Notes under the pieces: generated by a model
Databases searched by the model: none
What the model saw: the letters and a program-made list of their open reading frames with translations, nothing else
Told to the model about the DNA's origin: nothing
Part shown: piece after piece, positions 1 to 57,944 of the stretch
Layout of the letters: each line of letters begins with the position of its first letter
Numbering within the stretch: position 1 is the stretch's first letter
Position numbers and translations under genes: made by a program
Source of the DNA: Eledone cirrhosa
Taxonomy: Eukaryota
Direction: 5' to 3'
DNA: 64,000 bases
Assembly (NCBI GenBank): GCA_964016885.1
Contig: CAXHJY010000702.1
Coordinates: 131,428-195,427, forward strand

Positions 1-463
1 TTCTAGTACCAAACCCATAGCCTCCATGGATTCCGTCATAGCCGTCACAATGTTGTCCAACGTGACCATTTAGGTCGCCAGCAATAATTATATAGTCACT
101 GTCGGTTATTTGGGAGGTAGTGAGCATCAGTGTCTCATAGAATCTGTCTTTTATAGCGCCAGGCAGTCCGGATCGGGGTGCGTACGCAGATATTACTGTC
201 ACAGTAGTTCTATTTAGAACAAGTCTTATTTTAATTATTCTGTCGTTCACTCTATTTACGTCTATTATCTTATCCACCCATTTTTCTGCTAACATGAATC
301 CTACCCGACCCAGCCGATTGTCATTTCCCACCCAGAAATGCTTATAGCATCGTTTTTAACACACAATGAATCTAGCAGACCCGCCACTCCAACTGGTCTC
401 TTGGATACAGCAAACATCAACCTCCTTACGTTCAAGCATTTCTACAACCTCGTTAGAGTGACC
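1..463 (-). mobile_element. RTE-clade LINE fragment (APE endonuclease region), runs off window start
   Basis: Minus strand encodes ...KGHSNEVVEMLERKEVDVCCIQETSWSG (APE QET motif). Bases 1-105 nearly match 50012-50115 of the RTE copy. Abuts a TA tract at its truncated 5' end. Confidence 0.85.
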
Positions 464-2832: not shown

Positions 2833-5800
2833 TCAGGATTTGGGCACCATGGCCCATTCGAGAAGAGAATTACTGTTTGCGGAGACATATCCGGGTGTGG
2901 GTGGTTTGTCCGGGATTACTTGGAGGAATTTGTCCAAAGACTTCTTGAATTTTGTGTGGTCAGTTTCTGTTTTGACGTGTCCTGGTGTGATGTTGAAGAG
3001 AGCAGGGCCGATTGAGGTGAAATAATTGTGCCGTATTGATGTTATGAGTTGCGATTTAGATTTTTGAATGGGACGGATAGCACGGGGCCCAAGCCTTGGG
3101 TGTATCTTGAAGGCGATGCCAACATCATTTGGGCAGTGATGATGGAACATTTTCCACATCATGCAGATAATATAACGCTCACGGCGACGTTGGAGTGAGT
3201 AAAGTTTCAGGTTTTCCAATCGACCCCAGTAGTCAAGGTCTGACATGCCATCTATCTTTTTCGTGATTGCCCTTTGAGGAGCTTCAAGTTTCATGATACT
3301 TTGTTTCGTGTGGGGAGACCACAGTGGACAACAGTATTCAAGGTGTGGTCGGGCGAAAGTAGAGAAGAGAAGGATAATGGTGCGGGAATCTCTCGACTGG
3401 AAGGTTCTGAGGATCCAGGAACACATTCTGCGGGCCATGTCAACTTTGCTGCTTATATGCGTGGTCCAGCTTATGTTGCTGTCCACGGTTACTCCCAAGT
3501 CTCTGATGTTGTTAGATGCCACGAGAGTTTCCCCGGAGGGAAGGGAGTACGGGAGTTTCAGAGCATCCTCTTTTCCAAAGTGGATCAGTTCGAATTTGTC
3601 TTCGTTCAGTAACATGTTGTTCTTTTCTGCCCATTGGGTAACAGCCAGTAGGTCTGACTGAAGGCTTATCCGGTCATCCACGCCATTGATGACCTTTTGG
3701 AGCTTGGAATCATCAGCGAAAATTTTAATGTTGCTGTGTTTGATGATGTCAGTGATGTCATTAATATAGATGATGAAGAGAAGTGGGCCCAACACAGTGC
3801 CTTGTGGGACTCCACTACTGACTTTGGCTGGGCTTGATTTGACTCCCTCAACTACAACATGTTGGGTTCTGTTTGACAGGAAGCTCTTGATCCACTGCAG
3901 CAGCTTTCCAGTGACACCAATATTGGACAGCTTTCTCAGTAGAATGTTATGATCAACCCTGTCAAAGGCCTTGCTGAAATCAAGGTAGATAACATCAGTG
4001 TTGGAACCCTCTCCCAAGGCTCTCAAAATGTCATCAAAGTGATGCAGTAGTTGCGTCAGGCAATCCCTTCCATTACGGAATCCATGCTGGTTGGAGTTCA
4101 GCATATTGTTACTCTCAAGGAAGTGGGTCATTCGCGATCTCACCACTCGCTCAAATACCTTAATGATATGAGAGGTGAGTGAGATTGGACGGTAATTCAC
4201 GGCAAGGGATTTGTTTCCCTTTTTGAAAACTGGGACAACAGACTGGGATAGAAGGTTTTCTGGCACATATCCAGCATCCAGTGAGTTCCGCCACAGATTG
4301 GCAAGAGGAGAAGCAAGTTGGTGTTGACACGCCTTCAAGACACAAGCAGGGAACCTATCGGGACCTACTGCTGAATTATGCTTGATTTCCTTTATTGCCG
4401 CCAAGACATCAGGGGCGCCAAACGTTATGTCCGATAAGGTGTAATGGGGAGTAACATCGCCGATACAGCCCAGATCGGCCATATCAGGATTGCTGAAAAC
4501 AGAGCAGTATTGTTTCTGCAGTATCTCACCCATGGTTTTAGCATTGTCTTGAAGAGTGCCATTTTCATCAATTAGAGGGCCAACAGTAGAGCCAGTGATT
4601 TTGTGTTTTTTTGCAAATGAAAAGAACACTTTGGGATTGAGTTTGATCTTCTCAATGGCCCAGGCCTCTTCAGCTCTTCTCTGATTGTTGATGAGGGACA
4701 TTATGTTGTTTTGGAGGTTATGTTTTTTAATCTCTAGTGATGAAATGGCAGTCAAGTTGATGTGTTGCTGCTGACAGTATTTCAGATTGTTGATTTTTTT
4801 GTTCGTTCTCTTAATTTTTCTGATGAGCGTTTTTCTATTTCTAGGGATTCTGCTCTTAGATTTGTTTATAGTTCTTAATGGGGTGTGTTTAGCACATATG
4901 TTTGTAACAGTGTCCACAAATGTCTGCCAGGACTTTTTGATGTTAGTGGGTGTATGAGTGTGCGTGAAGGACCAGTCGACATGTGCAAGATCATGACTGA
5001 TCGCTTCCCAGTTTGCATTGTGGAAATCCATAGCGTCAAACGGATGGACAGGAGAAATGACATTGGGTTTGTATATTGGACGGTGGAATCTCAGATCACA
5101 GAGAACCATGTCATGATCAGAGAGTAGAGTTTTCTCCACTGCAATATTGTGGATATTGTCAGTGTGATTGCTGAAAATTAAGTCTAGGACGTTTTTGTGG
5201 CACCTCGTTGGTTCGAGCACTAGTTGGGATAGGAAGAAATCATCCATGAAGTCAAGAAGCGATTCCACAGCTTCCCTGTCAGAGGTTGAGGCAGAAGAAC
5301 CTGGTGGCAGGGTGTTTGTGGACCAGTCAACTCCGGGGAGGTTGAAGTCCCCCATCATTAAGATATTGTCAGGGTGACACTCTTGGATGAAACACTTTAT
5401 GCTGTTGAGGCATTCCTTGAAGCATGGTACAGGCGTTTGGGGTGGCCTATAGAGCCCAACTACTAATAGGTTGTTGGTTTGACTGAATACAGTGACTGCC
5501 TCACAGTATCCATTAGTGAATATGTTCATAGCCTCTGTTGAGAAAGAATTATGGACATAAATGGCAGTTCCGCCCTTTCTTCTGCCAGCGCGATCAGCAC
5601 GGATGGCTTTGAAATTTTTCACTTTCACCTCGGCTTCCAAGTGGAGGTTACTGAGATGGGTTTCAGTGAGGACGAAGAAAGGGATGTGGTTTGGATGGAC
5701 ATCAATCCAGTCCTCCAGGAATTTGATCTTCCATTTTTGAGTATTGGTGGAAGGGCTGATGCCTTGGGCGTTAAGTAAAAATGTAGAGGCGAGAGTGGAT

Positions 5801-5853
5801 GGTTTTAATTGTTTTGGTGTGTTGTTAATTTGTTTGTTTGTTAATGGCAGCAA
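2833..5853 (-). CDS. LINE ORF2: APE endonuclease + reverse transcriptase (1006 aa)
   Basis: EN motifs LTETH, YRPP, GDFNLP, LDLIF, SDH. RT motifs [42 protein letters not shown]-terminal RPHLEY..WSP and [10 protein letters not shown] typical of the CR1 group. Confidence 0.95.
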
Positions 5854-7001
5854 TGGGAGTTTGTGCAGTGGGGTGATAGTGGAGGGTGGTGCTGGGTGAT
5901 AGCTCGAATGTTTTTTTCCAGTTCTTTTGCCAGATTCATTATGGCTAAAAAAGAGGAAGAAGTTTCCTGTTTAGAAGACTGTTGGTGACTGTGGTAGTGG
6001 TTATTTTTATGTAGGTTATGGTTTTTGTTTTTGCTTTTATTTTTAATTTTATTTTCATTTATCCGACGGGTCCCCGGGAGATGGGTAAAGGGACAATCCC
6101 GGTCTAAACACAATCTGTCTCGCAGGGAAAAACGGCAGATTTGTGGATTCCTTGTTTGAGTTATTGGTGGTTGTGTTGGTGTTAAATTAGAGTATGTATT
6201 ATGGTGGTGGCTGTTTGTGGGGATAGATCGTTTTGTCCTAGGTAAATGGGTGAATTTGCAGCCACTATCCGTACATATTCTATAGCGTAGAGAGTAGCGG
6301 CAAATGATGGGGTTTCGAGTGGGTGGGTATATGGGTGTGGGTGTTGTGAGAGGTGTAGATGATGGTTTGGGTAGGATTTGACGACCTTTGTGGACTGTGG
6401 GAGGGAGAGTTCTTGTTCTGGTATTAGAAGGTAAATTCCTTGACATAGCAGTAGACAAAAATGTTGTAGTAGTAGTAGTAGTAGTAGGCAGAGATGTTGG
6501 CAGTGGTGATGATTGGACTGCTGGGCCAGAGAAAGGATGTGGCGTTTCATGCTGTGAGACAGAGGCTACTGGGGGGTCAATAGTTTCATTTAGTAGATCG
6601 GCCATTGTTGATGAATCAAGGAGTGGTTCACACTGTTGTTGTTGCTGTTGTTGATGTTGTTGTTGTAGCTGTTGTTGATGTTGTTGTTGTAGCTGTTGTT
6701 GTTGTTGCTGTTGTAGCTGCTGTTGTTGTTGTTGCTGCTGCTGGACAGCATTCGAAGAGAAAACACACCGTAGTTTATCCAAATGTTTATTGATTAATTT
6801 AAAAGCAATTTCGATTTGCTTTAATTTATTTTGAATCTGTTGTTCAGATCGAGTTTTCAAAAATTGAACTGTACGTTTAGCAATGTCGTTCAGAGATGAA
6901 GCATCTATATTTTCTGTTTGGGAAAGGCAATGCCATGTGTTTATTAGAATGTCGATTTCATTATCAGACCAGTTCTGTTTGGATTTTTGCTGGTTAGCCA
7001 T
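5841..7001 (-). CDS. LINE ORF1: Myb/SANT-like N-terminus, polyQ, P/T-rich linker, two CCCH zinc-finger-like repeats (386 aa)
   Basis: NWSDNEIDILINTW...RSEQQIQNKLK, plus CRYSLRYRICTDSGCKFTH and CRFSLRDRLCLDRDCPFTH. Lies directly upstream of ORF2, overlapping the called ORF2 start by 13 nt. Confidence 0.8.
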   Translation of the reverse strand: MANQQKSKQNWSDNEIDILINTWHCLSQTENIDASSLNDIAKRTVQFLKTRSEQQIQNKLKQIEIAFKLINKHLDKLRCVFSSNAVQQQQQQQQQLQQQQQQQLQQQHQQQLQQQHQQQQQQQCEPLLDSSTMADLLNETIDPPVASVSQHETPHPFSGPAVQSSPLPTSLPTTTTTTTTFLSTAMSRNLPSNTRTRTLPPTVHKGRQILPKPSSTPLTTPTPIYPPTRNPIICRYSLRYRICTDSGCKFTHLPRTKRSIPTNSHHHNTYSNLTPTQPPITQTRNPQICRFSLRDRLCLDRDCPFTHLPGTRRINENKIKNKSKNKNHNLHKNNHYHSHQQSSKQETSSSFLAIMNLAKELEKNIRAITQHHPPLSPHCTNSHCCH

Positions 7002-8384: not shown

Positions 8385-8445
8385 TTCATACGGATTGGAC
8401 ACTACCGTAAACTCTTGGTAGATTTATCTACATATATATATATAC

Positions 8446-8619
<174 letters not shown>

Positions 8620-8637
8620 ATATATATATATATACAC

Positions 8638-8928
<291 letters not shown>

Positions 8929-8952
8929 CATATATACATATACATATATATG

Positions 8953-11639
8953 TACTCGACAACAGAAGAGGACTATCCTCAGGAGGAAAATATGGAAGCT
9001 AAAGCACCCCACAGCCATGAATAAATTTCAAAGCATATTACTTGATGCTTTCGACAGTAAGGAAGAACATTTAGAGTCGGACAATATAGAGGGAGAGTGG
9101 GAATTTCTGAAAGCAAACCTGCTGTTGGCGACAGACGAAGTCTGTGGCTGGAGCAGGCCTGTAGGCAGGAGGAGAGTAACATGGTGGTGGAACAGTAAGG
9201 TGGAGGGGTCAATTAAGGCCAAAAAGCAGGCTTGGAAAGTATGGCGGGATGGGGGAAGTAGAGAGGACTATCAAGTGGCCAGGAGGGAAGCTAGGAGACA
9301 AGTGTACTTAGCAAGAAGGGAAGCTGAGGAAAGAAAGTTCAAGCATGTTCTACAACGCGATGACCAAAAACGTGAGGTGTTCAGGATTGCTAGGCAATGC
9401 GTCAAGGAAAACCGTGATATTGTCGGGGAGAAGTGTGTACTAAACGACGATGGCACACTTGCCATCACCGACGCTGATAAGAAGGTAGCTTGGAAGTGTC
9501 ACTATGAAAGGCTACTAAATGAGGAGAATAATTGGGAGAAAGGCAGTCTCCCCCATATCGACCCAATAGAGGGACCAGCAGTGTTAGTCGAGGGGAGTAT
9601 AATAAGTAAGGCAATCAAGGATATGAAGACTGGTAAGGCGGCTGGGCCTTCGGAAATAGTTGCTGAGATGCTGAAGGCATCTGGCACGGTGGGACACACC
9701 ATGGTCACCCGCATAGTTAACCAAGTCGTACAGAATGGGGTTGTTCCGAAGGACTGGCATAGCAGCATCATCGTTAACTGTTATAAGGGTAAAGGAGACG
9801 CCCTAGATAGGAGTAACTATAGAGGCATTAAATTAATCGACCAGGTCATGAAGGTCACGGAAAAAGTAATAGCGCAACTAATCAGAGAGAGAATTGACCT
9901 AGATGAAATGCAGTTCGGGTTTGTGTCAGGCAAAAGTACCACAGACGCTCTTTTCATAGTACGACAACTACAGGAGAAGTACCTAGCTAAAGGTAAACCC
10001 CTCTACTTAGCTTTTGTCGACTTGGAGAAAGCCTTCGACAGAGTCCCCCGCTCCATTATCTGGTGGGCTCTTAGAAAACTAGGCGTTGACGAATGGCTTG
10101 TGAGGGCTATACAAGCCATGTATAAAGAAACAGTCAGCAAGGTTAGAATTAACAACGAATATAGTGAAGAGTTTAGCGTAAAAGTTGGCGTCCATCAGGG
10201 CTCTGTTCTCAGTCCACTACTATTTATTATTGCCCTTCAGGCTATAACAGAGGAGTTCAAGACAGGCTGCCCATGGGAACTCCTATACGCAGACGACCTG
10301 ACACTCATAGCGGAATCAATGGCCGAGCTAGAGAAGAAATTCCAAACATGGAAGCACGGCCTAGAGTCAAAAGGACTTAAAATTAACCTGGCTAAGACCA
10401 AAGTACTAGTTTGTAGGAAAGAAAACAAGGCGGCGGTCCCTTCTGGGAAATGGTCGTGCTCGGTGTGTAGGAAAGGCGTAGGTAGAAACTCCATTTTATG
10501 TCCTAAATGCAAAGTATGGGTGCATAAAAGATGTAGTGGGATCACAGGTAAGCTAACTAAGAACATAGATTTTACATGTGGCCGGTGCTCTGGTGCAATA
10601 AGTAGCAGCAAGTGCCCACAAACTACTAGCTCTTTCAATTGCGCAGAGGGTTCTATAGAAATAGTGGACAGCTTCCGTTACCTGGGCGATAAAATCAGCA
10701 GTGGGGGAGGGTGCTCTGAAAGTACTGTAGCTAGAGTCAGAACTGGTTGGAAAAAGTTCAGAGAGCTTATACCACTATTAGCTGCTAAAGGGTTCTCACT
10801 AAAAATGAAAGGCAGGTTGTACGATGCCTGCATACGAACAGCAATGCTGCATGGCAGTGAGACCTGGGCATTGTGTGCAGAGGATATACGCAGACTAGAG
10901 AGGAACGAAGCTTGCATGCTCCGCTGGATGTGTAACAGTAATATACGTGAACGGCAAAGCATAAACGAACTAAGGAAAAAATTAGAGATAAGAGGGATCA
11001 GATGTTGTTTACTCGAGAGAAGGCTACGTTGGTATGGACACGTGATGCGCATGAAAGTCGATAGCTGTATAACAAAGTGCAGGGCAATAAAGATAGACGG
11101 TAGTCACGGAATAGGCAGACCTAGAAAAACCTGGGACGAGCTGATAAACTCCGACATCACACACTTACACCTCTCCAAGACAATGTCACTGGACCGAGAC
11201 CTTTGGCGGTACTCAGTAACAGAGAAGACCCGCCTTACCTAAATATATAGTAAAACCTACTCCAGCCAGTAGGCATCTCTAACAAAATACACCCCGTCCC
11301 ACCACCACCACCCCCACCCGATCCACACCACCCCGTTCTATGTAAAGTTATGTTGGTGCCGCGCCATCGAGGCCGAAACAAATGAGATCGTGTAGGTGTC
11401 ACGACAAAAAACACACAGTCCACGCTGTAATGTGGCCGTGTAGGCAACACGGTAAAAACCTCCCAGACCCACACTGTAAATGTGGTTGGTGTTAGGAAGG
11501 GCATCCAACTGTAGAAAACCTGCCAGACAGTCCTATGCGAGCAAGACAATCACTCTTGCCTCAAGTGGGACTACCCCCGTCCAAACCCATGCAAGCGTGG
11601 AACACGGACGTTAAACGTTGATGATGATGATGATGATGA
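8953..11639 (+). mobile_element. 5'-truncated young RTE-clade LINE
   Basis: Open 741-aa RT-containing ORF, about 400 bp 3' UTR, (GAT)n tail, TA tracts on both sides. Confidence 0.93.
9017..11242 (+). CDS. RTE ORF (EN lost): RT with embedded PHD-like zinc finger
   Basis: [65 protein letters not shown]4HC3 insert at 10457-10588. Confidence 0.9.
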
Positions 11640-12816: not shown

Positions 12817-14876
12817 ATCATCATCATCATCGTTTAACGTCCGTGTTCCACGCTTGCATGGGTTTGGGCGGGGGTTTTCCCACTTGAGGCAAGAGTGGTT
12901 ATCTTGCTCGCATAGGACTATCTGGCAGGTTTTCTACAGCTGGATGCCCTTCCTAACACCAACCACATTTACAGTGTGGGGCTGGGAGGTTTTTACCGTG
13001 TTGCCTACACGGCCACATTACAGCGTGAACTGTGTGTTTTTTTGACGTGACACCTACACGATCTCATTTGTTTCGGCCTGCATGTTGTGGCACCAACATA
13101 ACTTTACATTGAAAGGGGCGGTGTGGATGGGGTGGGGTGGGTGGGACGGAGGTGTATTTTGTTAGAGATCCCTACTGACTGTAGTAGGTTTTACTTTGTA
13201 TTTAGGTAAGGCGGGTCTTCTCTATTACTGAGTACCGCCAAAGGTCTCGGTCCAGTGACATTGTCTTGGTGAGGTGTAAGTGTGTGAGGTCGGAATTTAT
13301 CAGCTCGTCCCAGGTTTTTCTGGGTCTGCCTATTCCGTGGCTACCGTCTATCTTTATTGCCCTGCACTTTGTTATACAGCTATCGTTCTTCATGCGCATC
13401 ACGTGACCATACCAACGTAGCCTTCTCTCGAGTAAACAATATCTGATCCCTCTTATTTCTAATTTTTTCCTTAGTTCGTTTATGCTTTGCCGTTCACGTA
13501 TATTACTATTACACATCCAGCGGAGCATGCAAGCTTCGTTTCTCTCTAGTCTGTGTATATCCTCTGCACACAATGCCCAGGTCTCACTGCCATGCAACAT
13601 TGCTGTTCGTATGCAGGCATCGTACAACCTGCCTTTCTTTTTTAGGGAGAACCCTTTAGCGGCTAATAGCGGTATAAGCTCTCTGAACTTTTTCCATCCA
13701 GTTCTGACTCTAGCTACTGTACTTTCAGAGCACCCTCCCCACTGCTGATTTTGTCACCCAGGTAACGGAAGCTGTCGACTATTTCTATAGAACCCTCTGC
13801 GCAGTTGAAAGAGCTAGTATTTTGTGGGCACTTGCTGCTACTTATTTCCCCAGAGCACCGGCCACATGTAAAATCTATGTTCTTAGTTAGCTTACCTGTG
13901 ATCCCACTACATCTTTTATGCACCCATACCTTGCATTTGGGACACAAAATGGAGTTTCTACCTACGCCTTTCCTACACATTGAGCATGGCCACTTCCCGG
14001 AGGGGACCGCTGCCTTATTTTCTTTGTTACAAACTAGAACTTTAGTCTTAGCCAGGTTAATTTTAAGGCCTTTTGATTCTAGGCCGTGCTTCCATGTTTG
14101 GAATTTCTTCTCTAGCTCGGCCATTGATTCAGCTATGAGCGTTAGATCATCTGCGTATAGGAGTTCCCATGGGCAGCCAGTCTTGAACTCCACTGTTATA
14201 GCCTGGAGGGCAATAATAAATAGTAGGGGGCTAAGAACAGAGCCCTGATGAACACCAACTTTTACGCTAAACTCTTCACTATATTCGTTGTTAATTCTAA
14301 CCTTGCTGACTGTTTCTTTATACATGGCTTGTATAGCTCTCACAAGCCATTCATCAACACCTAGTTTTCTAAGAGCCCACCAGATAATGGAACGGGGGAC
14401 TCTGTCGAAGGCTTTCTCCAAGTCGACGAAAGCTAAGTATAGGGGTTTACTTTTAGCTAGGTACTTCTCCTGTAGTCGTCGTACAATAAAAAGAGCGTCT
14501 GTGGTACTTTTGCCTGACACAAACCCGAACTGCATTTCATCTAGATCAATTCTCTCTCTGATTAGTTGCGCTATTACTTTTTCCGTGACCTTCATGACCT
14601 GGTCGATTAATTTAATGCCTCTATAGTTACTCCTATCTAGGGCATCTCCTTTACCCTTATAACAGTTAACGATGATGCTGCTATGCCAGTCCTTCGGAAC
14701 AACCCCATTCTGTATGACTTGGTTGACTATCCGGGTGACCATGGTGTGTCCCACCGTACCAGATGCCTTCAGCATCTCGGCAACTATTTCCGAAGGCCCA
14801 GCCGCCTTACCCGTCTTCATATCTTTGATTGCCTTACTTATTATACTACCCTCTACTAACACTGCTGGTCCCTCTC
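12817..14876 (-). mobile_element. 5'-truncated RTE copy with frameshift, tail-to-tail with the 8953-11639 copy
   Basis: ORFs 13714-14862 and 13202-13627 match the + copy protein. (ATC)n tail at 12817. Confidence 0.92.
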
Positions 14877-17642: not shown

Positions 17643-17772
17643 CATGGAAAGTTATATTTAAATTGTTGGGTTAACAACGAGTAAATATTTATAACTGATA
17701 TAAAAGCACTCAAGTATTTGGAGTATATTTATGATATTAAATAAATGGAAACTATATTTATAAAACCATATT

Positions 17773-17838
17773 TATTTCATTATATATATTTCAGGGATAT
17801 CATATTAACAATATGTTATGCCTTCATCAGACAAAATA
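17773..17838 (-). ncRNA. Type I hammerhead ribozyme motif (mirror copy)
   Basis: Reverse complement of 18070-18135. Confidence 0.72.
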
Positions 17839-18069
17839 CAATATAAACAGTCTTATAAATAAATAGATATGACATACCTTTCAATCGACTTGCATTTGGG
17901 AAGTTGATTTGGCAGTAAAAAATATTGTGGACAGTTGTAAAAAGAAAGAGAGAAAGAAAGAAAGAAAGAAAAACTGTCCACAATATTTTTTACTGCCAAA
18001 TCAACTTCCCAAATGCAAGTCGATTGAAAGGTATGTCATATCTATTTATTTATAAGACTGTTTATATTG

Positions 18070-18135
18070 TATTTTGTCTGATGAAGGCATAACATATTGT
18101 TAATATGATATCCCTGAAATATATATAATGAAATA
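18070..18135 (+). ncRNA. Type I hammerhead ribozyme motif
   Basis: Stem I TATTTTGT/ATGAAATA (2 wobbles), CTGATGA, stem II AGG.c.ATA.a.CATATT-gtt-AATATG.a.TAT.c.CCT, GAA, palindromic stem III ATATATAT, H17=A. Confidence 0.75.
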
Positions 18136-18172
18136 AATATGGTTTTATAAATATAGTTTCCATTTATTTAAT

Positions 18173-19505: not shown

Positions 19506-19872
19506 TATATTAATAAAATGAATTCCAACTTTGTCTGATTTACTCGTTTTATTTACAATCCTTTAAAATTTATAATGGTATTAGAATGAAATAGGATGGT
19601 AAGTGTTAATTGAACAAGTACTTTTATGCTTTTGCAATCTTCAGGTACATATTGTGTGGTGACAGTCAAGTTTGCAACTTTCACAGTTGAAAATTGCACA
19701 CTTGACTGTCACCACACAATATGTACCTGAAGATTGCGAAAGCCTGAAAGTACTTGTTCAATTAACATTTAATATTCTACCCTACTATTTCATCTAATAC
19801 CATTATAAATTTTAAAGGATTGTAAATAAAACGGGTAAATCAGACAAAGTTGGAATTCCTTTTATTAATATA
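19506..19872. repeat. Imperfect foldback (about 180-bp arms) carrying degenerate hammerhead motifs
   Basis: Arms pair almost to the centre (about 19685). Plus motif GTAC-CTGAAGA-TTGC.GAAA.GCCT-GAAA-GTAC-TT-GTTC at 19722-19760, mirror at 19611-19649. Confidence 0.8.
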
Positions 19873-46896: not shown

Positions 46897-49800
46897 TCAT
46901 CATCATCATCATCGTTTAACGTCCATGTTCCACGCTTGCATGGGTTTGGACGGGGGTTTTCCCACTTGAGGCAAGAGTGGTTGTCTTGCTCGCATAGGAC
47001 AGTCTGGCGGGTTTTCTACAGCTGGATGCCCTTCCTAACACCAACCACATTTACCGTGTGGGGCTGGGAGGTTTTTACCATGTGGCCTACACGGCCACAT
47101 TACAGCGTGGACTGTGTTTTTTTGTCGTGACACCTACACAATCTCATTTGTTTCGGCCTGGATGTTGTGGCACCAACATAACTTTACATTCAAAGGCGCG
47201 GTGTGGATGGGGTTGGGGTGGTGGGACGGGGTGTATTTTGTTAGAGATGCCTACTGACTGTAGTAGGTTTTACTTTGTAAGGCAGGTCTTCTCTATTACT
47301 GAGTGGACTGTGTGTTTTTTTGTCGTGACACCTACACGATCTCATTTGTTTCGGCCTGGATGTTGTGGCACCAACATAACTTTACATAGAACGGGGTGGT
47401 GTGGATGGGGTGGGGGTGGTGGGACGGGGTGTATTTTGTTAGAGATGCCTACTGGCTGTAGTAGGTTTTACTATGTATTTAGGTAAGGCAGGTCTTCTCT
47501 GTTACTGACTACCGCCAAAGGTCTCGGTCCAGTGACATTGTCTTGGAGAGGTGTAAGTGTGTGAGGTCGGAGTTTATCAGCTCGTTCCAGGTTTTTCTAG
47601 GTCTGCCTATTCCGTGGCTACCGTCTATCTTTATTGCCCTGCACTTTGTTATACAGCTATCGACTTTCATGCGCATCACGTGTCCATACCAACGTAGCCT
47701 TCTCTCGAGTAAACATCATCTGATCCCTCTTATTTCTAATTTTTTCCTTAGTTTGTTTATGCTTTGCCGTTCACGTATATTACTGTTACACATCCAGCGG
47801 AGCATGAAAGCTTCGTTCCTCTCTAGTCTGCGTATATCCTCTGCACACAATGCCCAGGTCTCACTGCCATGCAACATTGCTGTTCGTATGCAGGCATCGT
47901 ACAACCTGCCTTTCATTTTTAGGGAGAACCCTTTAGCAGCTAATAGTGGTATAAGCTCTCTGAACTTTTTCCAACCAGTTCTGACTCTAGCTACTGTACT
48001 TTCAGAGCACCCTCCCCCACTGCTGATTTTATCGCCCAGGTAATGGAAGCTGTCCACTATTTCTATAGAACCCTCTGCGCAATTGAAAGAGCTAGTATTT
48101 TGTGGGCACTTGCTGCTACTTATTGCACCAGAGCACCGGCCACATGTAAAATCTATGTTCTTAGTTAGCTTACCTGTGATCCCACTACATCTTTTATGCA
48201 CCCATACTTTGCATTTAGGACATAAAATGGAGTTTCTACCTACGCCTTTCCTACACACCGAGCACGACTATTTCCCAGAAGGGACCGCCGCCTTATTTTC
48301 TTTCCTACAAACTAGAACTTTAGTCTTAGCCAGGTTAATTTTAAGTCCTTTTGATTCTAGGCCGTGCTTCCATGCTTGGAATTTCTTCTCTAGCTCGGCC
48401 ATTGATTCCGCTATGAGTGTCAGGTCGTCTGCGTATAGGATTTCCCATGGGCAGCCGGTCTTGAACTCCTCTGTTATAGCCTGAGGGGCAATAATAAATA
48501 GTAGGGGGCTGAGAACAGATCCCTGATGGACGCCAACTTTTACGCTAAACTCTTCACTATATTCGTTAATTCTAACCTTGCTGACTGTTTCTTTATACAT
48601 GGCTTGTATAGCTCTCACAAGCCATTCGTCAACGCCTAGTTTTCTAAGAGCCCACCAGATAATGGAGCGGGGGACTCTGTCGAAGGCTTTCTCCAAGTCG
48701 ACAAAAGCTAAGTAGAGGGGTTTACCTTTAGCTAGGTACTTCTCCTGTAGTTGTCGTACGATGAAAAGAGCGTCTGTGGTACTTTTGCCTGACACAAACC
48801 CGAACTGCATTTCATCTAGGTCAATTCTCTCTCTGATTAGTTGCGCTATTACTTTTTCCGTGACCTTCATGACCTGGTCGATTAATTTAATGCCTCTATA
48901 GTTACTCCTATCTAGGGCGTCTCCTTTACCCTTATAACAGTTAACGATGATGCTGCTATGCCAGTCCTTCGGAACAACCCCATTCTCTACGACTTGGTTA
49001 ACTATGCGGGTGACCACGGTGTGTCCCACCGTGCCAGATGCCTTCAGCATCTCAGCAACTATTTCCGAAGGCCCAGCCGCCTTACCCGTCTTCATATCCT
49101 TGATTGCCTTACTTATTATACTCCCCTCGACTAACACTGCTGGTCCCTCTATTGGGTCGATATGGGGGAGACTGTCTTTCTCCCATTTATTCTCCTCATT
49201 TAGTAGCCTTTCATAGTGACACTTCCAAGCTACCTTCTTATCAGCGTCGGTGATGGCAAGTATGCCATCATCGTTAAGTACACACTTCTCCCCGACAATA
49301 TCACGGTTTTCCTTGACGCATTGCCTAGCAATCCTGAACACATCACGTTTTTGGTCCTCGCGTTGTAGAACATGCTTGAACTTTCTTTCCTCAGCTTCCC
49401 TTCTTGCTAAGTACACTTGTCTCCTAGCTTCCCTCCTGGCCACTTGATAGTCTTCTCTACTTCCCCCATCCCGCCATACTTTCCAAGCCTGCTTTTTGGC
49501 CTTAATTGACCCCTCCACCTTACTGTTCCACCACCATGTTACTCTCCTCCTGCCTACAGGCCTGCTCCAGCCACAGACTTCGTCTGTCGCCATCAGCAGG
49601 TTTGCTTTCAGAAATTCCCAGTCCCTCTATATTGTCCGACTCTAAATGTTCTTCCTTACTGTCAAAAGCATCAAGTAATATGCTTTGAAATTTATTTCTG
49701 GCTGTGGGGTCCTTTAGCTTCCATATTTTTCTCCTGAGGATAGTCCTCTTCTCCTGTCGAGTACGTCTCGTCCTGACTATGAGGTCGCTAATTATCAGTC

Positions 49801-52635: not shown

Positions 52636-53996
52636 TATATATGTATATATATGTATATAACTTTGAATAATTTTGAAATGTTTTGGCCAGTATTGGCCCA
52701 GGCCATGTCTAACTTAATAGCACCACCTGGCAAAGTCTTTCAATTCAGGATTTGGGCACCATGGCTCATTTGAGAAGAGAATTACTGTTTGTGGAGACAT
52801 ATCCGGGTGTGGGTGGTTTGTCCGGGATTACTTGGAGGAATTTGTCCAAAGTCTTCTTGTATTTTGTCTGGTCAGTTTCTGTTTTGACGTGTCCTGGTGT
52901 GATGTTGAAGAGAGCAGGGCCAATTGAGGTGAAATAATTGTGCCGTATGTTGTTATGAGTTGCGATTTATATTTTTGTTTGGGACGGATAGCACGGGGCC
53001 CAAGCCTTGGGTGTATTTTGAAGGTGATGCCAACATCATTTGGGCAGTGCTGATGGAACATTTTCCACATGATGCAGATAATATAATGCTCACGGCGACG
53101 TTGGAGTGAGTAAAGTTTCAGCTTTTCTAGTCGACTCCTGTAGTCAAGGTCTGACATGCCATCTATCTTTTTCGTGATTGCCCTTTGGGGAGCTTCAAGT
53201 TTCATGATACTTTGTTTCGTGTGGGGAGACCACAGTGGACACCAGTATTCAAGGTGTGGTCGGGCAAAAGTGGAGAAGAGAAGGATAATGGTGTGGGAAT
53301 CTCTCGAATGGAAGGTTCTGAGGATCCAGGAACACATTCTGCGGGCCATGTCAACTTTGCTGCTTATATCCGTGGCCCAGCTTATGTTGCTGTCCACGGT
53401 TACTCCCAAGTCTCTGATGTTGTTAGATGCCACGAGAGTTTCACCGGAGGGAAGGGAGTACGGGAGTTTCAGAGCATCCTCTTTTCCAAAGTGGATCAGT
53501 TCGAATTTGTCTTTGTTCAGTAACATGTTGTTCTTTTCCGCCCATTGGGTAACAGCCAGTAGGTCTGACTGAAGGCTTATCCGGTCATCCACGCCATTGA
53601 TGACCTTTTCGAGCTTGGAATCATCAGCGAAAATTCTAATGTTGCTGTGTTTGATGATGTCAGTGACGTCATTAATATAGATGATGAAGAGAAGTGGGCC
53701 CAACACAGTGCTTTGTGGGACCCCACTACTGACTTTGGCTGGGATGGATTTGACTCCATCGACTACAACATGTTGGGTTCTGTTTGACAGGAAGCTCTTG
53801 ATCCACTGCAGCAGCTTTCCAGTGACACCAATATTGGACAGCTTTCTGAGTAGAATGTTGTGATCAACCCTGTCAAAGGCCTTGCTGAAATCAAGGTAGA
53901 TAACATCAGTGTTGGAACCCTCTCCCAAGGCTCTCAAAATGTCATCAAAGTGATGCAGTAGCTGCGTCAGGTAATCTCTTCCATTACGGAATCCAT
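52636..53996 (-). mobile_element. 5'-truncated copy of the 2737-7740 LINE
   Basis: Near-identical to 2747-4086. 1-bp deletion near 52949 frameshifts the C-terminus. TA flanks. Confidence 0.93.
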
Positions 53997-54147
53997 GTAT
54001 GTATATATATGTATATATATATGTATATATATATGTATATATATATGTATATATATATGTATATGTATATATATATATATGTATGTATGTATGTATATAT
54101 ATATGTATGTATATATATGTATATATATATATATATATTATTTATAT

Positions 54148-54808
54148 ATATAAACAAGGTTTAGTAAATAATGAAAAAGTTTCAAAATAAATTTTTAAAA
54201 ATTGACTTTACCTACTATAGTTACCTTTACCGATCGGTTTCAAATCCCAAAAATAAAACGGAGACCATACGGCCTTCGTTGCAAAGAAAGATTCTCGTCA
54301 GAAGGTTCTTTTCATTCAAAGAATATAAAATTCCTGAATTTAAATCACAAACTAGCGCTATCAAAAACTGTTCCTGGGATGAGAGTGGATGATGTAGAAC
54401 AGGTTTATCAAGGGCCGTAGCAAAGATAGAGGCAAAAGGAGGTAGGTCAAACTAGCCACCGCTATTGCTAGCAGCACTCGGAATGACCCGGTTTGTTCTC
54501 AACGTTAGTGGAGGTAGTAGTAATATGAAATACGTCCCTTCACGCACAAGGCGCCAAGGTACGCATGTATTGTCCAACCAAGTGCCAATGTGGTTTGGGA
54601 TTTGAAACCGATCGGTAAAGGTAACTATAGTAGGTAAAGTCAATTTTTAAAAATTTATTTTGAAACTTTTTCATTATTTACTAAACCTTGTTTATATTTG
54701 TTCTGGCTCGTTAATTTATTAACCCGCCATTGAACCACATTGGCACTTGGTTGGACAATGCATGCGTACCTTGGCGCCTTGTGCGTGAAGGGACGTATTT
54801 CATATTAT
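54148..54808. mobile_element. TA-flanked module with two interleaved inverted repeats (Penelope-like terminus)
   Basis: About 54148-54251 is inverted at about 54594-54697, and about 54521-54595 is inverted at about 54734-54808. Confidence 0.75.
54223..54306 (-). ncRNA. Type I hammerhead ribozyme motif
   Basis: Minus strand ACCTT-CTGACGA-GAATCTT...GGGATTT-GAA-ACCGATCGGT-A-AAGGT: canonical core, palindromic stem III, GUA triplet. Confidence 0.8.
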
Positions 54809-54860
54809 TATTTATATATATGTAGATATATGTATATATGTATATATATGTATATATATG

Positions 54861-54923
<63 letters not shown>

Positions 54924-55700
54924 GTATATATATGTATATATGTATATATACGTATATATATATGTATATATATGTATATATATGTATATATGTATATATA
55001 TGTATATATATGTATATATATGTATATATATGTATATATATGTATGTATATATGTGTATATATGTATATATATGTATGTATATATGTATATATATATGTA
55101 TATATATATATATATATATGTGTATATATATGTGTAGGAGGTGAGTTTTATTGTAGTACAATAAAGCAATGCAGATATCCCTTTCATCTAACTCATCTCA
55201 ATATTTCCTTACTTAAATAACCTGTTATTCCTTTTAATAATACATATCAACATTTTCTTAACATCGCACATATTATTAAACCTTAAATATTATTATTCTC
55301 AATACATATTAACATTTTCTTATTCATCGCACATATTATCAAACCCCTCAATATACAAACCTTAACTTTACATTATTTTTCTCTTCGTTAATTTTCAAAT
55401 TCTTTTAATTTATACATTATCTTCCAACAGTTTTCAACCTCTCTATGTAAAACAATATATCTTTCTCAGTTATAAAAGCTATCTCTCTCTCTCTATCACC
55501 CATCTCTCCTCCTATCTCATCCTTCCTCATTATACTCCTCCCTCTCCACTTTTTACTCTCATCTCCTCCTCTTTTTCACCCCCCCCTCTAAATAAAATAT
55601 TTTTCCCAATATCACACATCAATCTAAAACTACTTTTCATATGTTGATTTAAAACTGAACTATCCACAAGTGTTTTTTAACCTTCATATCATATCTTCCT

Positions 55701-55767
55701 GTTTTATCTGATGAAAACAAATATTATTGCATGATGATATTTGTTTTTGAAATGCGCATAATAAAAT
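55701..55767 (+). ncRNA. Type I hammerhead ribozyme motif (tandem copy 1)
   Basis: GTTTTAT-CTGATGA-AAACAAATATTATT.GCAT.GATGATATTTGTTTTT-GAA-ATGCGCAT-A-ATAAAAT. Confidence 0.78.
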
Positions 55768-55846
55768 ACATGGAACGCTTTTAACCATCTTTTGTTCTTA
55801 TATATTATGTATATATATATGTATATATATATATATATGTATATAC

Positions 55847-55918
<72 letters not shown>

Positions 55919-56071
55919 GTAGGAGGTGAGTTTTATTGTAGTACAATAAAGCAATGCAGATATCGGATAAGAAGCACTCTACAGTTTGTAGGACTGGAGT
56001 ATACTTTTCATATGTTGATTTAAAACTGCACTATCCACAAGTGTTTTTTAGCCTTCATATCATGTTCTCCT

Positions 56072-56141
56072 GTTTTATCTGATGAAAACACAAATATTAT
56101 TGCATGATGATGTTTTATTTTTGAAATGCGCATAATAAAAT
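56072..56141 (+). ncRNA. Type I hammerhead ribozyme motif (tandem copy 2)
   Basis: Same core, stem I and palindromic stem III as copy 1, with a diverged stem II. Confidence 0.72.
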
Positions 56142-56180
56142 ACATGGAACTCCTTTAACCATCTTTTTATCTTATATATG

Positions 56181-56211
<31 letters not shown>

Positions 56212-56218
56212 GTATATA

Positions 56219-56272
<54 letters not shown>

Positions 56273-56280
56273 TATATCTG

Positions 56281-56311
<31 letters not shown>

Positions 56312-56398
56312 GTATATATTATCAAGAAAACGAAAAATCAGTGATGTATCTTTACTTAGTTTATTTCGTGTTACCAATGTTTCGCCGGCATGTACATT

Positions 56399-56450
<52 letters not shown>

Positions 56451-56452
56451 AA

Positions 56453-56749
56453 TGTGTAGGGAATGTTTATGTACGTATGTGTTCGTATGTGTGTGTGGAC
56501 ATGTGAGTTTAAGTTTGTGTATATATGTGTGTCTATGTATGTATGTGTGTGTATATATATATGTATATATATACTTATAGTTATGTAATGAACAACATAG
56601 GATAGTTATTTCATTTACCAGTGGTTTCTTGAAAGCAAACGATATTTACTTTCATTTATCAGAATGAAAAAATCCTAGGTGTGTATGTATATGTGTGTAT
56701 GCACTTGTGCGTATATATGTATGTATGTGAATGTATGTGTGTATGAGCC

Positions 56750-56807
<58 letters not shown>

Positions 56808-57104
56808 GGCTCATACACACATACATTCACATACATACATATATACGCACAAGTGCATACACACATATACATACACACCTAGGATTTTTTCATTCTGATA
56901 AATGAAAGTAAATATCGTTTGCTTTCAAGAAACCACTGGTAAATAAAATAACTATCCTATGTTGTTCATTACATAACTATAAGTATATATATACATATAT
57001 ATATACACACACATACATACATAGACACACATATATACACAAACTTAAACTCACATGTCCACACACACATACGAACACATACGTACATAAACATTCCCTA
57101 CACA
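56453..57104. repeat. 652-bp near-perfect palindrome centred on a pure (TA)n tract
   Basis: The ORF track gives identical peptides on both strands (56675-56878 - and 56679-56882 +). One mismatch seen between arms. Confidence 0.93.
56888..56948 (+). ncRNA. Hammerhead-like motif with G8A core change (mirror copy 56609-56669, minus strand)
   Basis: TTTCATT-CTGATAA-A-TGAAAGTAAAT.ATC.GTTTGCTTTCA-A-GAA-ACCACTGGT-A-AAT(A/G)AAA. Confidence 0.6.
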
Positions 57105-57944
57105 CGCACCTACACACACACACATATATATATATATTTTTATATAAGTATATATATATAGATATATACACACAAAAGAAAAAAGGACAACTTAACATGC
57201 ATACGCATATCCACACATATCCATAAAAATACCCACGCATAGGCCGAACTACATACATCTACACAAGCGTTCGCATACATGCTGTCGCATGTATACACCA
57301 CCACACATGCACATCCGCCTACCCACACAGAAGTGCCACTACATGTACATATATAAACACACCTGTAAGTAAACAGTTGAAAAGACATTATGCAATAGAA
57401 AACAGTATAATAACATAAAACTGTATAATAACAAGAAAAATATACAATGAAATATAATATACAATGTGGTATATATATACACACACATATATATATATAT
57501 ACATACATATATCCCCCTATTATACATATATACACACACATACACATACGCACACATATATACACATGCGCACACATATATACACACACATACACAGACG
57601 CATACGTACACAGACTCATACGTAAATATACGCATATATATATGGTTATGTATAGAGGGTATGTGATAAAATAATACAACATGAATAATATTAATAATGA
57701 AAAAAACATATATAGTCCATATATAAACATCCGCACACTTTCCCAAGAGATGCACATAAACACATACATGTATGCACAAATACATATACACACATATAGA
57801 GGCCCGTGAATGCATACACCTGCACCCACACACACAACGACATATGTACACCCATACACATCCACACATATATACACACACTTACCCGCCCGCACACACA
57901 CGCACCTACTTATATGTGGCTATGCGTACTTACTCACACATATA

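What the first reader, a model, noticed from the sequence alone, without database searches (positions are those of the whole stretch)
55134..56178. Tandem hammerhead pair that would release a 374-nt, microsatellite-containing monomer
Seen: two head-to-tail units share a 46-bp start (55134-55179, 55919-55964) and a ~175-bp hammerhead-bearing end (55631-55803, 56001-56178), one long and one short, separated by TA. Predicted cuts fall after 55760 and 56134. Cores, stem I and ATGCGCAT are identical while stem II diverges. Established: tandem minimal hammerheads cleave via dimeric stem III, and non-LTR retrozyme monomers of a few hundred nt circularise. Inference: a retrozyme-like RNA carrying about 115 nt of (UA)n could both target and spread TA tracts.
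Basis: partly seen in the sequence, partly recalled or inferred. Interest (0 to 1): 0.75.

Follow-up and report, generated by a model that had tools for sequence, protein, structure and literature searches.

The report
Two Penelope retroelement ends in TA
These are two truncated ends of a very abundant Penelope-type jumping gene, each carrying the predicted self-cutting RNA motif normal for such genes, which likely landed one after the other in the same TA repeat; the locus is ordinary, but the family's thousands of copies record where copying of its RNA likely starts and stops.

Summary
Observation confirmed: two hammerhead-bearing units, identical 46-bp heads, predicted cuts 374 nt apart. 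The retrozyme reading is mostly not supported. Both units are 5'-truncated ends of a Hydra-clade Penelope-like retrotransposon (19,489 exact hammerhead 20-mers in the genome; 800-aa telomerase-like ORF; 3.66-kb unit). The head is the element's own tail, inverted. The units belong to different subfamilies, both head-to-body junctions are unique in the genome, and neighbouring hammerheads under 1 kb apart are inverted (18 of 18), not tandem. The TA is the target site, not part of the unit. A read-through RNA could still form the dimeric stem III, but both copies carry private stem II lesions; no RNA holder was listed. Of more interest is the family footprint: two fixed 3' ends 90 nt apart, used one per arm (27 of 29 pairs); a fixed 5' end 124 nt before the cut (37.5% of copies, extra G enriched); no such break at the cut (1.3%). 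This suggests twin priming on a capped, uncut sense RNA. The scan noted similar PLE footprints before, in this genome and in others. New member of a known kind.

The parts
54809..55133 (.). (TA)n target tract left of unit 1
55134..55179 (-). Inverted fragment of the element's tail (about +132 to +87 counted from the hammerhead cut); the '46-bp start' of unit 1
   Evidence: reverse complement of the sequence that follows the pLTR and precedes the ORF
55180..55638 (+). 5'-truncated 3' UTR of the element, subfamily B
   Evidence: 95-99% matches in the 40 scored places, preceded by the ORF end in L047, L048, L049
55639..55803 (+). pLTR end of unit 1, from the family's fixed 5' break (-124, likely RNA start) to the short 3' end
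55700..55769 (+). Hammerhead 1 (core 55708-55714, GAAA 55749-55752, predicted cut after 55760); private 2-nt deletion at the base of stem II
55799..55918 (.). (TA)n spacer, target DNA between the two insertions
55919..56001 (-). Inverted fragment of the tail (about +132 to +50); head of unit 2
56002..56178 (+). pLTR end of unit 2, subfamily A; starts 8 nt before the fixed 5' break (56010)
56071..56143 (+). Hammerhead 2 (core 56079-56085, predicted cut after 56134); private 1-nt insertion in stem II
56173..56319 (.). (TA)n target tract right of unit 2

Best explanation
The two units are 5'-truncated ends of a Hydra-clade Penelope-like retrotransposon that likely inserted independently into the same TA microsatellite, so that their hammerheads lie 374 nt apart by accident. 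How one insertion likely forms: the element's GIY-YIG nuclease would nick both strands of (TA)n; the two DNA ends would prime reverse transcription on one sense RNA at two fixed inner sites, about 46 and 134 nt behind the hammerhead cut; the two cDNAs stop at variable places, often at the RNA's likely capped 5' end 124 nt before the cut, and are joined head to head. When the cDNA primed at +134 stops inside the 90-nt tail, the result is the layout seen twice here: TA, inverted piece of tail, direct piece of element, TA. Shown: family, layout, end points, subfamilies. Inferred: order of events, priming, cap, template strand.
For: Upstream of the same 3' end other copies carry an ORF; 12 of 20 selected full-length candidates have an open 795-800 aa frame whose model (pLDDT 80) matches telomerase RT best (first five hits, E 1e-7 to 5e-7) and has DKT, YRDD, CxCx5C, YFGST, CxxC and CxH. 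The head is the reverse complement of the 90 nt that follow the pLTR and lead into the ORF. First 100 listed hammerheads on C1: 53 end at +38..56, 42 at +128..140, 4 run into the next ORF, 1 other; TA follows 40 of 53 and 37 of 42. 27 of 29 inverted pairs have one long and one short end (read; p 6e-7); arms share the subfamily label in 19 of 24 pairs against 0.23 by chance. At least 9 of 65 surveyed loci have the window's tail-only inverted arm; read contigs show many different tail-to-56010 joints. Unit 1 is 3-5 changes from subfamily B copies, unit 2 2-3 from subfamily A copies, 14 from each other. Both junctions are unique. A like pair in L134/L248 joins a 97.6% and an 84.5% copy across 26 nt of TA. 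5,377 of 14,353 exact 18-mers break at -124 against 221 of 17,157 at the cut.
Against: Pfam finds no RT in the ORF and only a weak GIY-YIG (E 0.01, under the cut-off) in the C-terminal piece; PDB sequence searches gave nothing; clade rests on motifs, not on a tree with published Hydra proteins. The pLTR tree does not resolve subfamilies A and B with support; the split rests on distances and diagnostic sites. All 3 loci with a neighbour within 400 nt, the window included, are head to tail, a small hint that tandem order may not be random. Arms could look alike through conversion after insertion. The extra G is 47.6% of breaks against 22% expected, but in 30 loci read, 12 are ambiguous (partner arm ends at the same place), 4 fit the partner by my test and about 5 more by eye. 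No RNA data.
Confidence: 0.88

Rival explanations
1. Nascent retrozyme: a transcript from the pLTR of unit 1 is cut by a dimeric hammerhead into a 374-nt RNA with about 115 nt of (UA)n that circularises and is copied by the element's RT in trans.
For: Unit 1 keeps the putative RNA start (55639) and 460 nt upstream; inter-copy stem III has probability 0.85 and the crossed stem I 0.54 and 0.12 in the fold model. pLTR promoters and dimeric cleavage are known (PMC2377424, PMC4209133, passages); retrozymes are proposed to derive from pLTRs (10.64898/2026.07.22.740005). Contig C610 holds three copies of another short unit with one shared junction in TA.
Against: Junction of the short unit occurs once; no direct pair under 1 kb among 100 hammerheads; the active-like fold costs 9.4 and 8.0 kcal/mol against 3.9-5.3 in seven of eight other copies folded; the stem II base pair next to the core has probability under 0.003 in both; two of three C610 copies have a broken core (CGGATGA) and lie 818 and 1,657 nt apart, which fits DNA-level duplication. 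PLE hammerheads cleave poorly in vitro (PMC4209133).
Confidence: 0.06
2. One complex insertion: a single event copied two RNAs of different subfamilies in turn, with TA added between them by slippage.
For: Identical 46-bp heads; TA filler occurs at inner junctions of some copies (L022, L025); 3 of 3 close neighbours are head to tail.
Against: Each unit is a complete two-arm insertion with its own long and short end; the first 46 nt of the tail are nearly invariant in the family, so identity says nothing; arms of one event share the subfamily; tandem units made in one event have no TA between them.
Confidence: 0.05
3. The layout arises by self-priming on an antisense template, as proposed for Adineta Penelope elements, or as a MITE-like DNA element.
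For: Head-to-head inverted arms and a CATATG palindrome at many junctions; model in PMC3846280 (Discussion passage).
Against: Arms end at the same sense-strand position, at an initiator-like TCA, with an enriched extra G; arm lengths vary and inner linkers differ from copy to copy; ends are asymmetric in 27 of 29 pairs.
Confidence: 0.08

Closest known systems
Hydra clade of C-terminal EN+ Penelope-like elements (Craig et al. 2021, PMC8557442; section 11 whole, passages, supplement part 2)
   Same: Single ORF with C-terminal GIY-YIG, DKT, CxCx5C, CxxC and CxH around E and N; hammerhead in the 3' end; insertion into (TA)n; inverted 5'-truncated copies; one-sided tail.
   Different: RWK motif reads RWT; unit 3.66 kb against under 3 kb (3' UTR about 1 kb, N/T/P-rich insert of about 75 aa); tail about 90 nt against 30-40; hammerhead with 15-16 bp stem II and ATGCGCAT, unlike the 25 or so Hydra-clade motifs listed in File S2; about 20,000 ends.
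Poseidon_Ac, internal initiation of reverse transcription (Frangieh et al. 2024, PMC11167929; parts 1-2 of 4, the whole main text)
   Same: Two inner RT start sites behind the hammerhead whose interval is the tail; both target strands extended; uncut RNA as substrate.
   Different: Here read from genomic copies, not in vitro; sites lie 5' of the ORF in UA-like words (UAUAUUAU, UACAU) that could pair with the TA primer; one site per arm; fixed 5' end.
Non-LTR retrozymes (Cervera and de la Pena 2020, PMC7229834, passages; Li et al. 2026 preprint, part 1 of 5 and passages)
   Same: Type I hammerheads in tandem, spacing inside 150-450 nt, low GC, pLTR origin.
   Different: Not a repeat of one unit, no family with this junction, protein-coding parent, no RNA shown.
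Adineta vaga Penelope elements (PMC3846280, passages)
   Same: Inverted pLTR with optional tail, initiator-like word in the pLTR, N-rich insert between RT and EN.
   Different: Low copy there; antisense self-priming was proposed, which the ends here do not favour.
L1 twin priming and cap-derived G (PMC4859970, passages)
   Same: Two primers on one RNA give an inversion; an untemplated G marks the capped end.
   Different: Here both start sites are fixed and both arms often copy the same stretch.

Membership tests
Penelope-like element (EN+) | Single ORF with telomerase-like RT | tested here: met
   795-800 aa open in 12 of 20 candidates; fold matches TERT first; Pfam silent
Penelope-like element (EN+) | C-terminal GIY-YIG endonuclease | tested here: inconclusive
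   PF01541 E 0.01, below cut-off, on the C-terminal piece; motif aligned with 6 homologues; no domain-level fold search run
Penelope-like element (EN+) | pLTR with hammerhead, partial tandems, inverted 5'-truncated copy, one-sided tail | tested here: met
Hydra clade | DKT, CxCx5C linker, CxxC and CxH, no CCHH, no N-terminal EN | tested here: met
   against the definition
Hydra clade | RWK motif | tested here: inconclusive
   RLRWT here; RMRWK or RIRWK in 3 of 6 aligned homologues
Hydra clade | Insertion into (TA)n | tested here: met
   77 of 95 fixed ends followed by TA
Hydra clade | RT phylogeny with published members | not tested
   published proteins were not in hand as sequences
Non-LTR retrozyme | Tandem repeats of one 150-450 nt unit, each with a hammerhead | tested here: not met
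   units differ (670 and 260 nt, two subfamilies); junctions unique; 0 direct pairs under 1 kb in 100
Non-LTR retrozyme | Non-coding family of its own | tested here: not met
   pieces of a coding element
Non-LTR retrozyme | Expressed linear and circular monomer RNA | not testable with these tools
   no RNA holder listed
Type I hammerhead ribozyme | CUGANGA, GAAA, UH, three stems | tested here: met
   stem II closes with A-U rather than G-C
Type I hammerhead ribozyme | Self-cleavage | not testable with these tools
   needs in vitro transcription

The most novel reading that the evidence does not exclude
This family's copies give a genome-scale read-out of the Penelope transposition cycle: a capped sense RNA starting 124 nt before an uncut hammerhead is primed by both strands of a (TA)n target at two fixed inner sites, one site per strand; over a third of cDNAs run off the cap as strong-stop-like pieces, so longer copies, and a five-unit 3.66-kb tandem made in one insertion, need a jump to the 3' pLTR, a tandem transcript or a hammerhead-made circle of the whole element. 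That would replace the antisense self-priming model for inverted PLE ends and fix testable coordinates for promoter, RT start sites and circle size.
Probability: 0.55. Interest if true: 0.55.

Novelty: new member of a known kind. Interest (0 to 1): 0.3.

Why it matters
The locus itself is ordinary. It shows how repeated insertion into TA can place two pLTR hammerheads at retrozyme spacing, a possible raw material for retrozymes but not one yet. The family is a young, very abundant Hydra-clade element with intact ORFs, and its end points make the open question of how Penelope elements form inverted and tandem ends directly testable.

Tried and rejected
Rfam gathering scan: 0 matches. The look-up of sequencing runs: no RNA holder listed, 4 runs of unknown kind from 1 study; they were laid only as contigs and say nothing on expression. 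A genome-wide count of TA-spaced neighbours by orientation could not be had; the count on held loci (247 outer ends, 3 loci) is too small to decide, and those loci are partly chosen by similarity. Pfam and PDB sequence searches did not recognise the RT. The pLTR tree left most forks open. Single-sequence folds of the hammerheads are not clearly better than shuffles (z -2.0, +0.7, -1.1), so the fold rests on family variation. A hairpin behind +46 is predicted but weak (z -1.1), none stable behind +134. 5' ends at the hammerhead cut were sought and are rare (1 of 252 in held loci; 1.3% genome-wide). Earlier findings by sequence: none. Rejected: 46-bp identity as evidence of one event; (UA)n as RNA cargo; C610 triple as an active array. 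The host organism was not worked out. Supplements of the bioRxiv preprint were not seen and may list related families. Paper searches for a strong-stop, untemplated-G or twin-priming account of PLEs listed none, in a library that lacks most subscription journals.

Full report
Observation. The sequence is as described. The 46-bp starts are identical, the ends 92% alike, and the hammerhead cuts fall after 55760 and 56134, 374 nt apart. Both motifs read stem I, CUGAUGA, a long stem II, GAAA, UGCGCA, UA, stem I. Rfam has no match at its thresholds. Across 233 ungapped copies from the genome, 8 of 9 common variants at paired positions keep the pair (all one-sided) and three loop positions vary, so the fold is real for the family. 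The two window copies carry private changes in stem II; forcing the active-like fold costs 9.4 and 8.0 kcal/mol against 3.9-5.3 in seven of eight other copies folded, one of which, an old copy, also cost 9.0.

What it is. The window lies in an animal genome of 3.0 Gb. The short unit's end has 480 candidate places, 40 scored; an exact 20-mer across the cut occurs 19,489 times and the tail end 12,332 times. Upstream of the same end many copies carry about 1 kb of UTR and an ORF. Of 20 copies chosen as best matches to the tail-ORF join, 12 have an open frame of 795-800 aa. Pfam and PDB sequence searches do not recognise the RT and give only a weak GIY-YIG, but the model (pLDDT 80) matches telomerase RTs in its first five hits, and 22 homologues of 30-37% identity were found. 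The motifs DKT, CxCx5C, CxxC and CxH, the hammerhead and the (TA)n target fit the Hydra clade of Penelope-like elements as defined in PMC8557442; the RWK motif reads RWT. A tandem array on C6 has five units of 3,656-3,664 nt from cut to cut with no TA between them, an inverted arm at one end and the tail at the other. That is the family's natural hammerhead-to-hammerhead monomer.

The head. In full-length copies the pLTR is followed by about 90 nt and then the 5' UTR and ATG (212 nt after the cut). The window's heads are reverse complements of 46 and 83 nt of this stretch. It is the PLE tail, which PMC11167929 showed to be the interval between two RT start sites.

Family footprint. I fetched the first 100 listed hammerheads on C1 (65 loci). 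53 end at +38..56, 42 at +128..140, 4 run into the next ORF, 1 is broken; TA follows 77 of the 95 fixed ends. Of 34 neighbour pairs within 6 kb, 29 are head to head (18 under 1 kb), 4 direct (3.3-4.4 kb), 1 convergent. 27 of the 29 have one long and one short end (read; p 6e-7). Arms of a pair share the subfamily label in 19 of 24 (chance 0.23); four of the five misses had an arm too short for the comparison. At least 9 of the 65 loci have the window's layout, a tail-only inverted arm. 5' ends pile up at -124, window position 56010: of 14,353 exact 18-mers starting there, 8,976 are preceded by the templated C, 2,557 by G and 2,820 by A or T. G makes 47.6% of the breaks against 22% expected, though many single cases are ambiguous. 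The site reads TTC-A-TATG, an initiator-like word (recalled consensus). At the hammerhead cut only 221 of 17,157 break. Contigs from unassembled reads show the same three borders and many different tail-to-56010 joints (one study, possibly the source sample).

Two events, not one repeat. Unit 1 is 3-5 changes from subfamily B copies, unit 2 is 2-3 from subfamily A copies, and they differ by 14 over the pLTR (diagnostic sites; the tree itself is unresolved). Each head-to-body junction occurs once in the genome. Among 247 outer ends in held loci, three loci including the window have a neighbour within 400 nt; all three are head to tail, too few to judge. One joins a 97.6% to an 84.5% copy across 26 nt of TA, the other has 270 nt of other DNA between. 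PLEs are reported to insert next to earlier copies (PMC6765202, passage). C610 has three short units with one shared junction, 818 and 1,657 nt apart, two with a broken core: likely DNA-level duplication.

Mechanism. Shown: family, layout, end points, subfamilies. Inferred: nicking of both strands of (TA)n, priming at +46 and +134 on one sense RNA, run-off at a capped end at -124 (an untemplated G marks the cap in L1 and SVA, PMC4859970; the Penelope promoter lies in the pLTR, PMC2377424), and head-to-head joining. An uncut hammerhead in the template agrees with PMC11167929. How copies pass beyond -124 is open: 3' pLTR priming, tandem transcripts, or a circle as proposed in PMC4209133. The antisense self-priming model of PMC3846280 fits these ends less well.

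Unit 1 keeps the putative start, and a read-through RNA is modelled with the dimeric stem III at probability 0.85, but with the stem II base next to the core under 0.003 in both copies. A 374-nt piece is possible, a mobile family is not seen, and retrozymes as defined in PMC7229834 are repeats of one unit. TA lies outside the unit; TA filler at some inner junctions leaves a small part in seeding TA open. No RNA holder was listed.

Verdict. Real, explained, a new member of a known clade. Interest 0.3. Earlier notes of this scan describe similar PLE ends and twin-priming layouts; I saw them after reaching this reading and take them as leads only.

Noticed in passing
window 17643-18170: Another TA-flanked head-to-head pair with a different hammerhead (CTGATGA, long stem II, GAAA-TATATA-TA; 18078 on +, mirror on -): likely the ends of a second Penelope-like family.
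   Followed up: partly
window 19510-19870: Inverted pair with a short CTGAAGAT-TGC..GC-TGAAAGTAC motif resembling the Hydra-clade hammerheads in File S2 of PMC8557442; one arm has a broken core.
   Followed up: partly
window 56390-57167: 389-nt arms, 95% complementary, around a central TA tract; not family-related.
   Followed up: no
window 54153-54808: TA-flanked repeat with internal inverted arms; a 98% copy with a tandem-inverted layout in L183.
   Followed up: partly
window 2836-5970, 8411-11239, 13717-14874, 48271-49626, 52831-54141: LINE-type RT frames, three with a PHD finger after the RT.
   Followed up: no
G000:C6:38068900-38089500 (L126-L128): One insertion of about 20 kb with five tandem 3.66-kb units, 99.6-100% alike, sharing one frameshift; fits rolling-circle copying or later amplification.
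   Followed up: partly
L244:1321-1569 and 2870-3117: Two older short units 1.55 kb apart, 92% alike, with the same tail-to-start junction; microhomology with the extra G or a small derivative family.
   Followed up: partly
L225:595-2994: About 75 aa N/T/P-rich disordered insert between RT thumb and linker, absent from six homologues, as in Adineta Penelope elements.
   Followed up: partly
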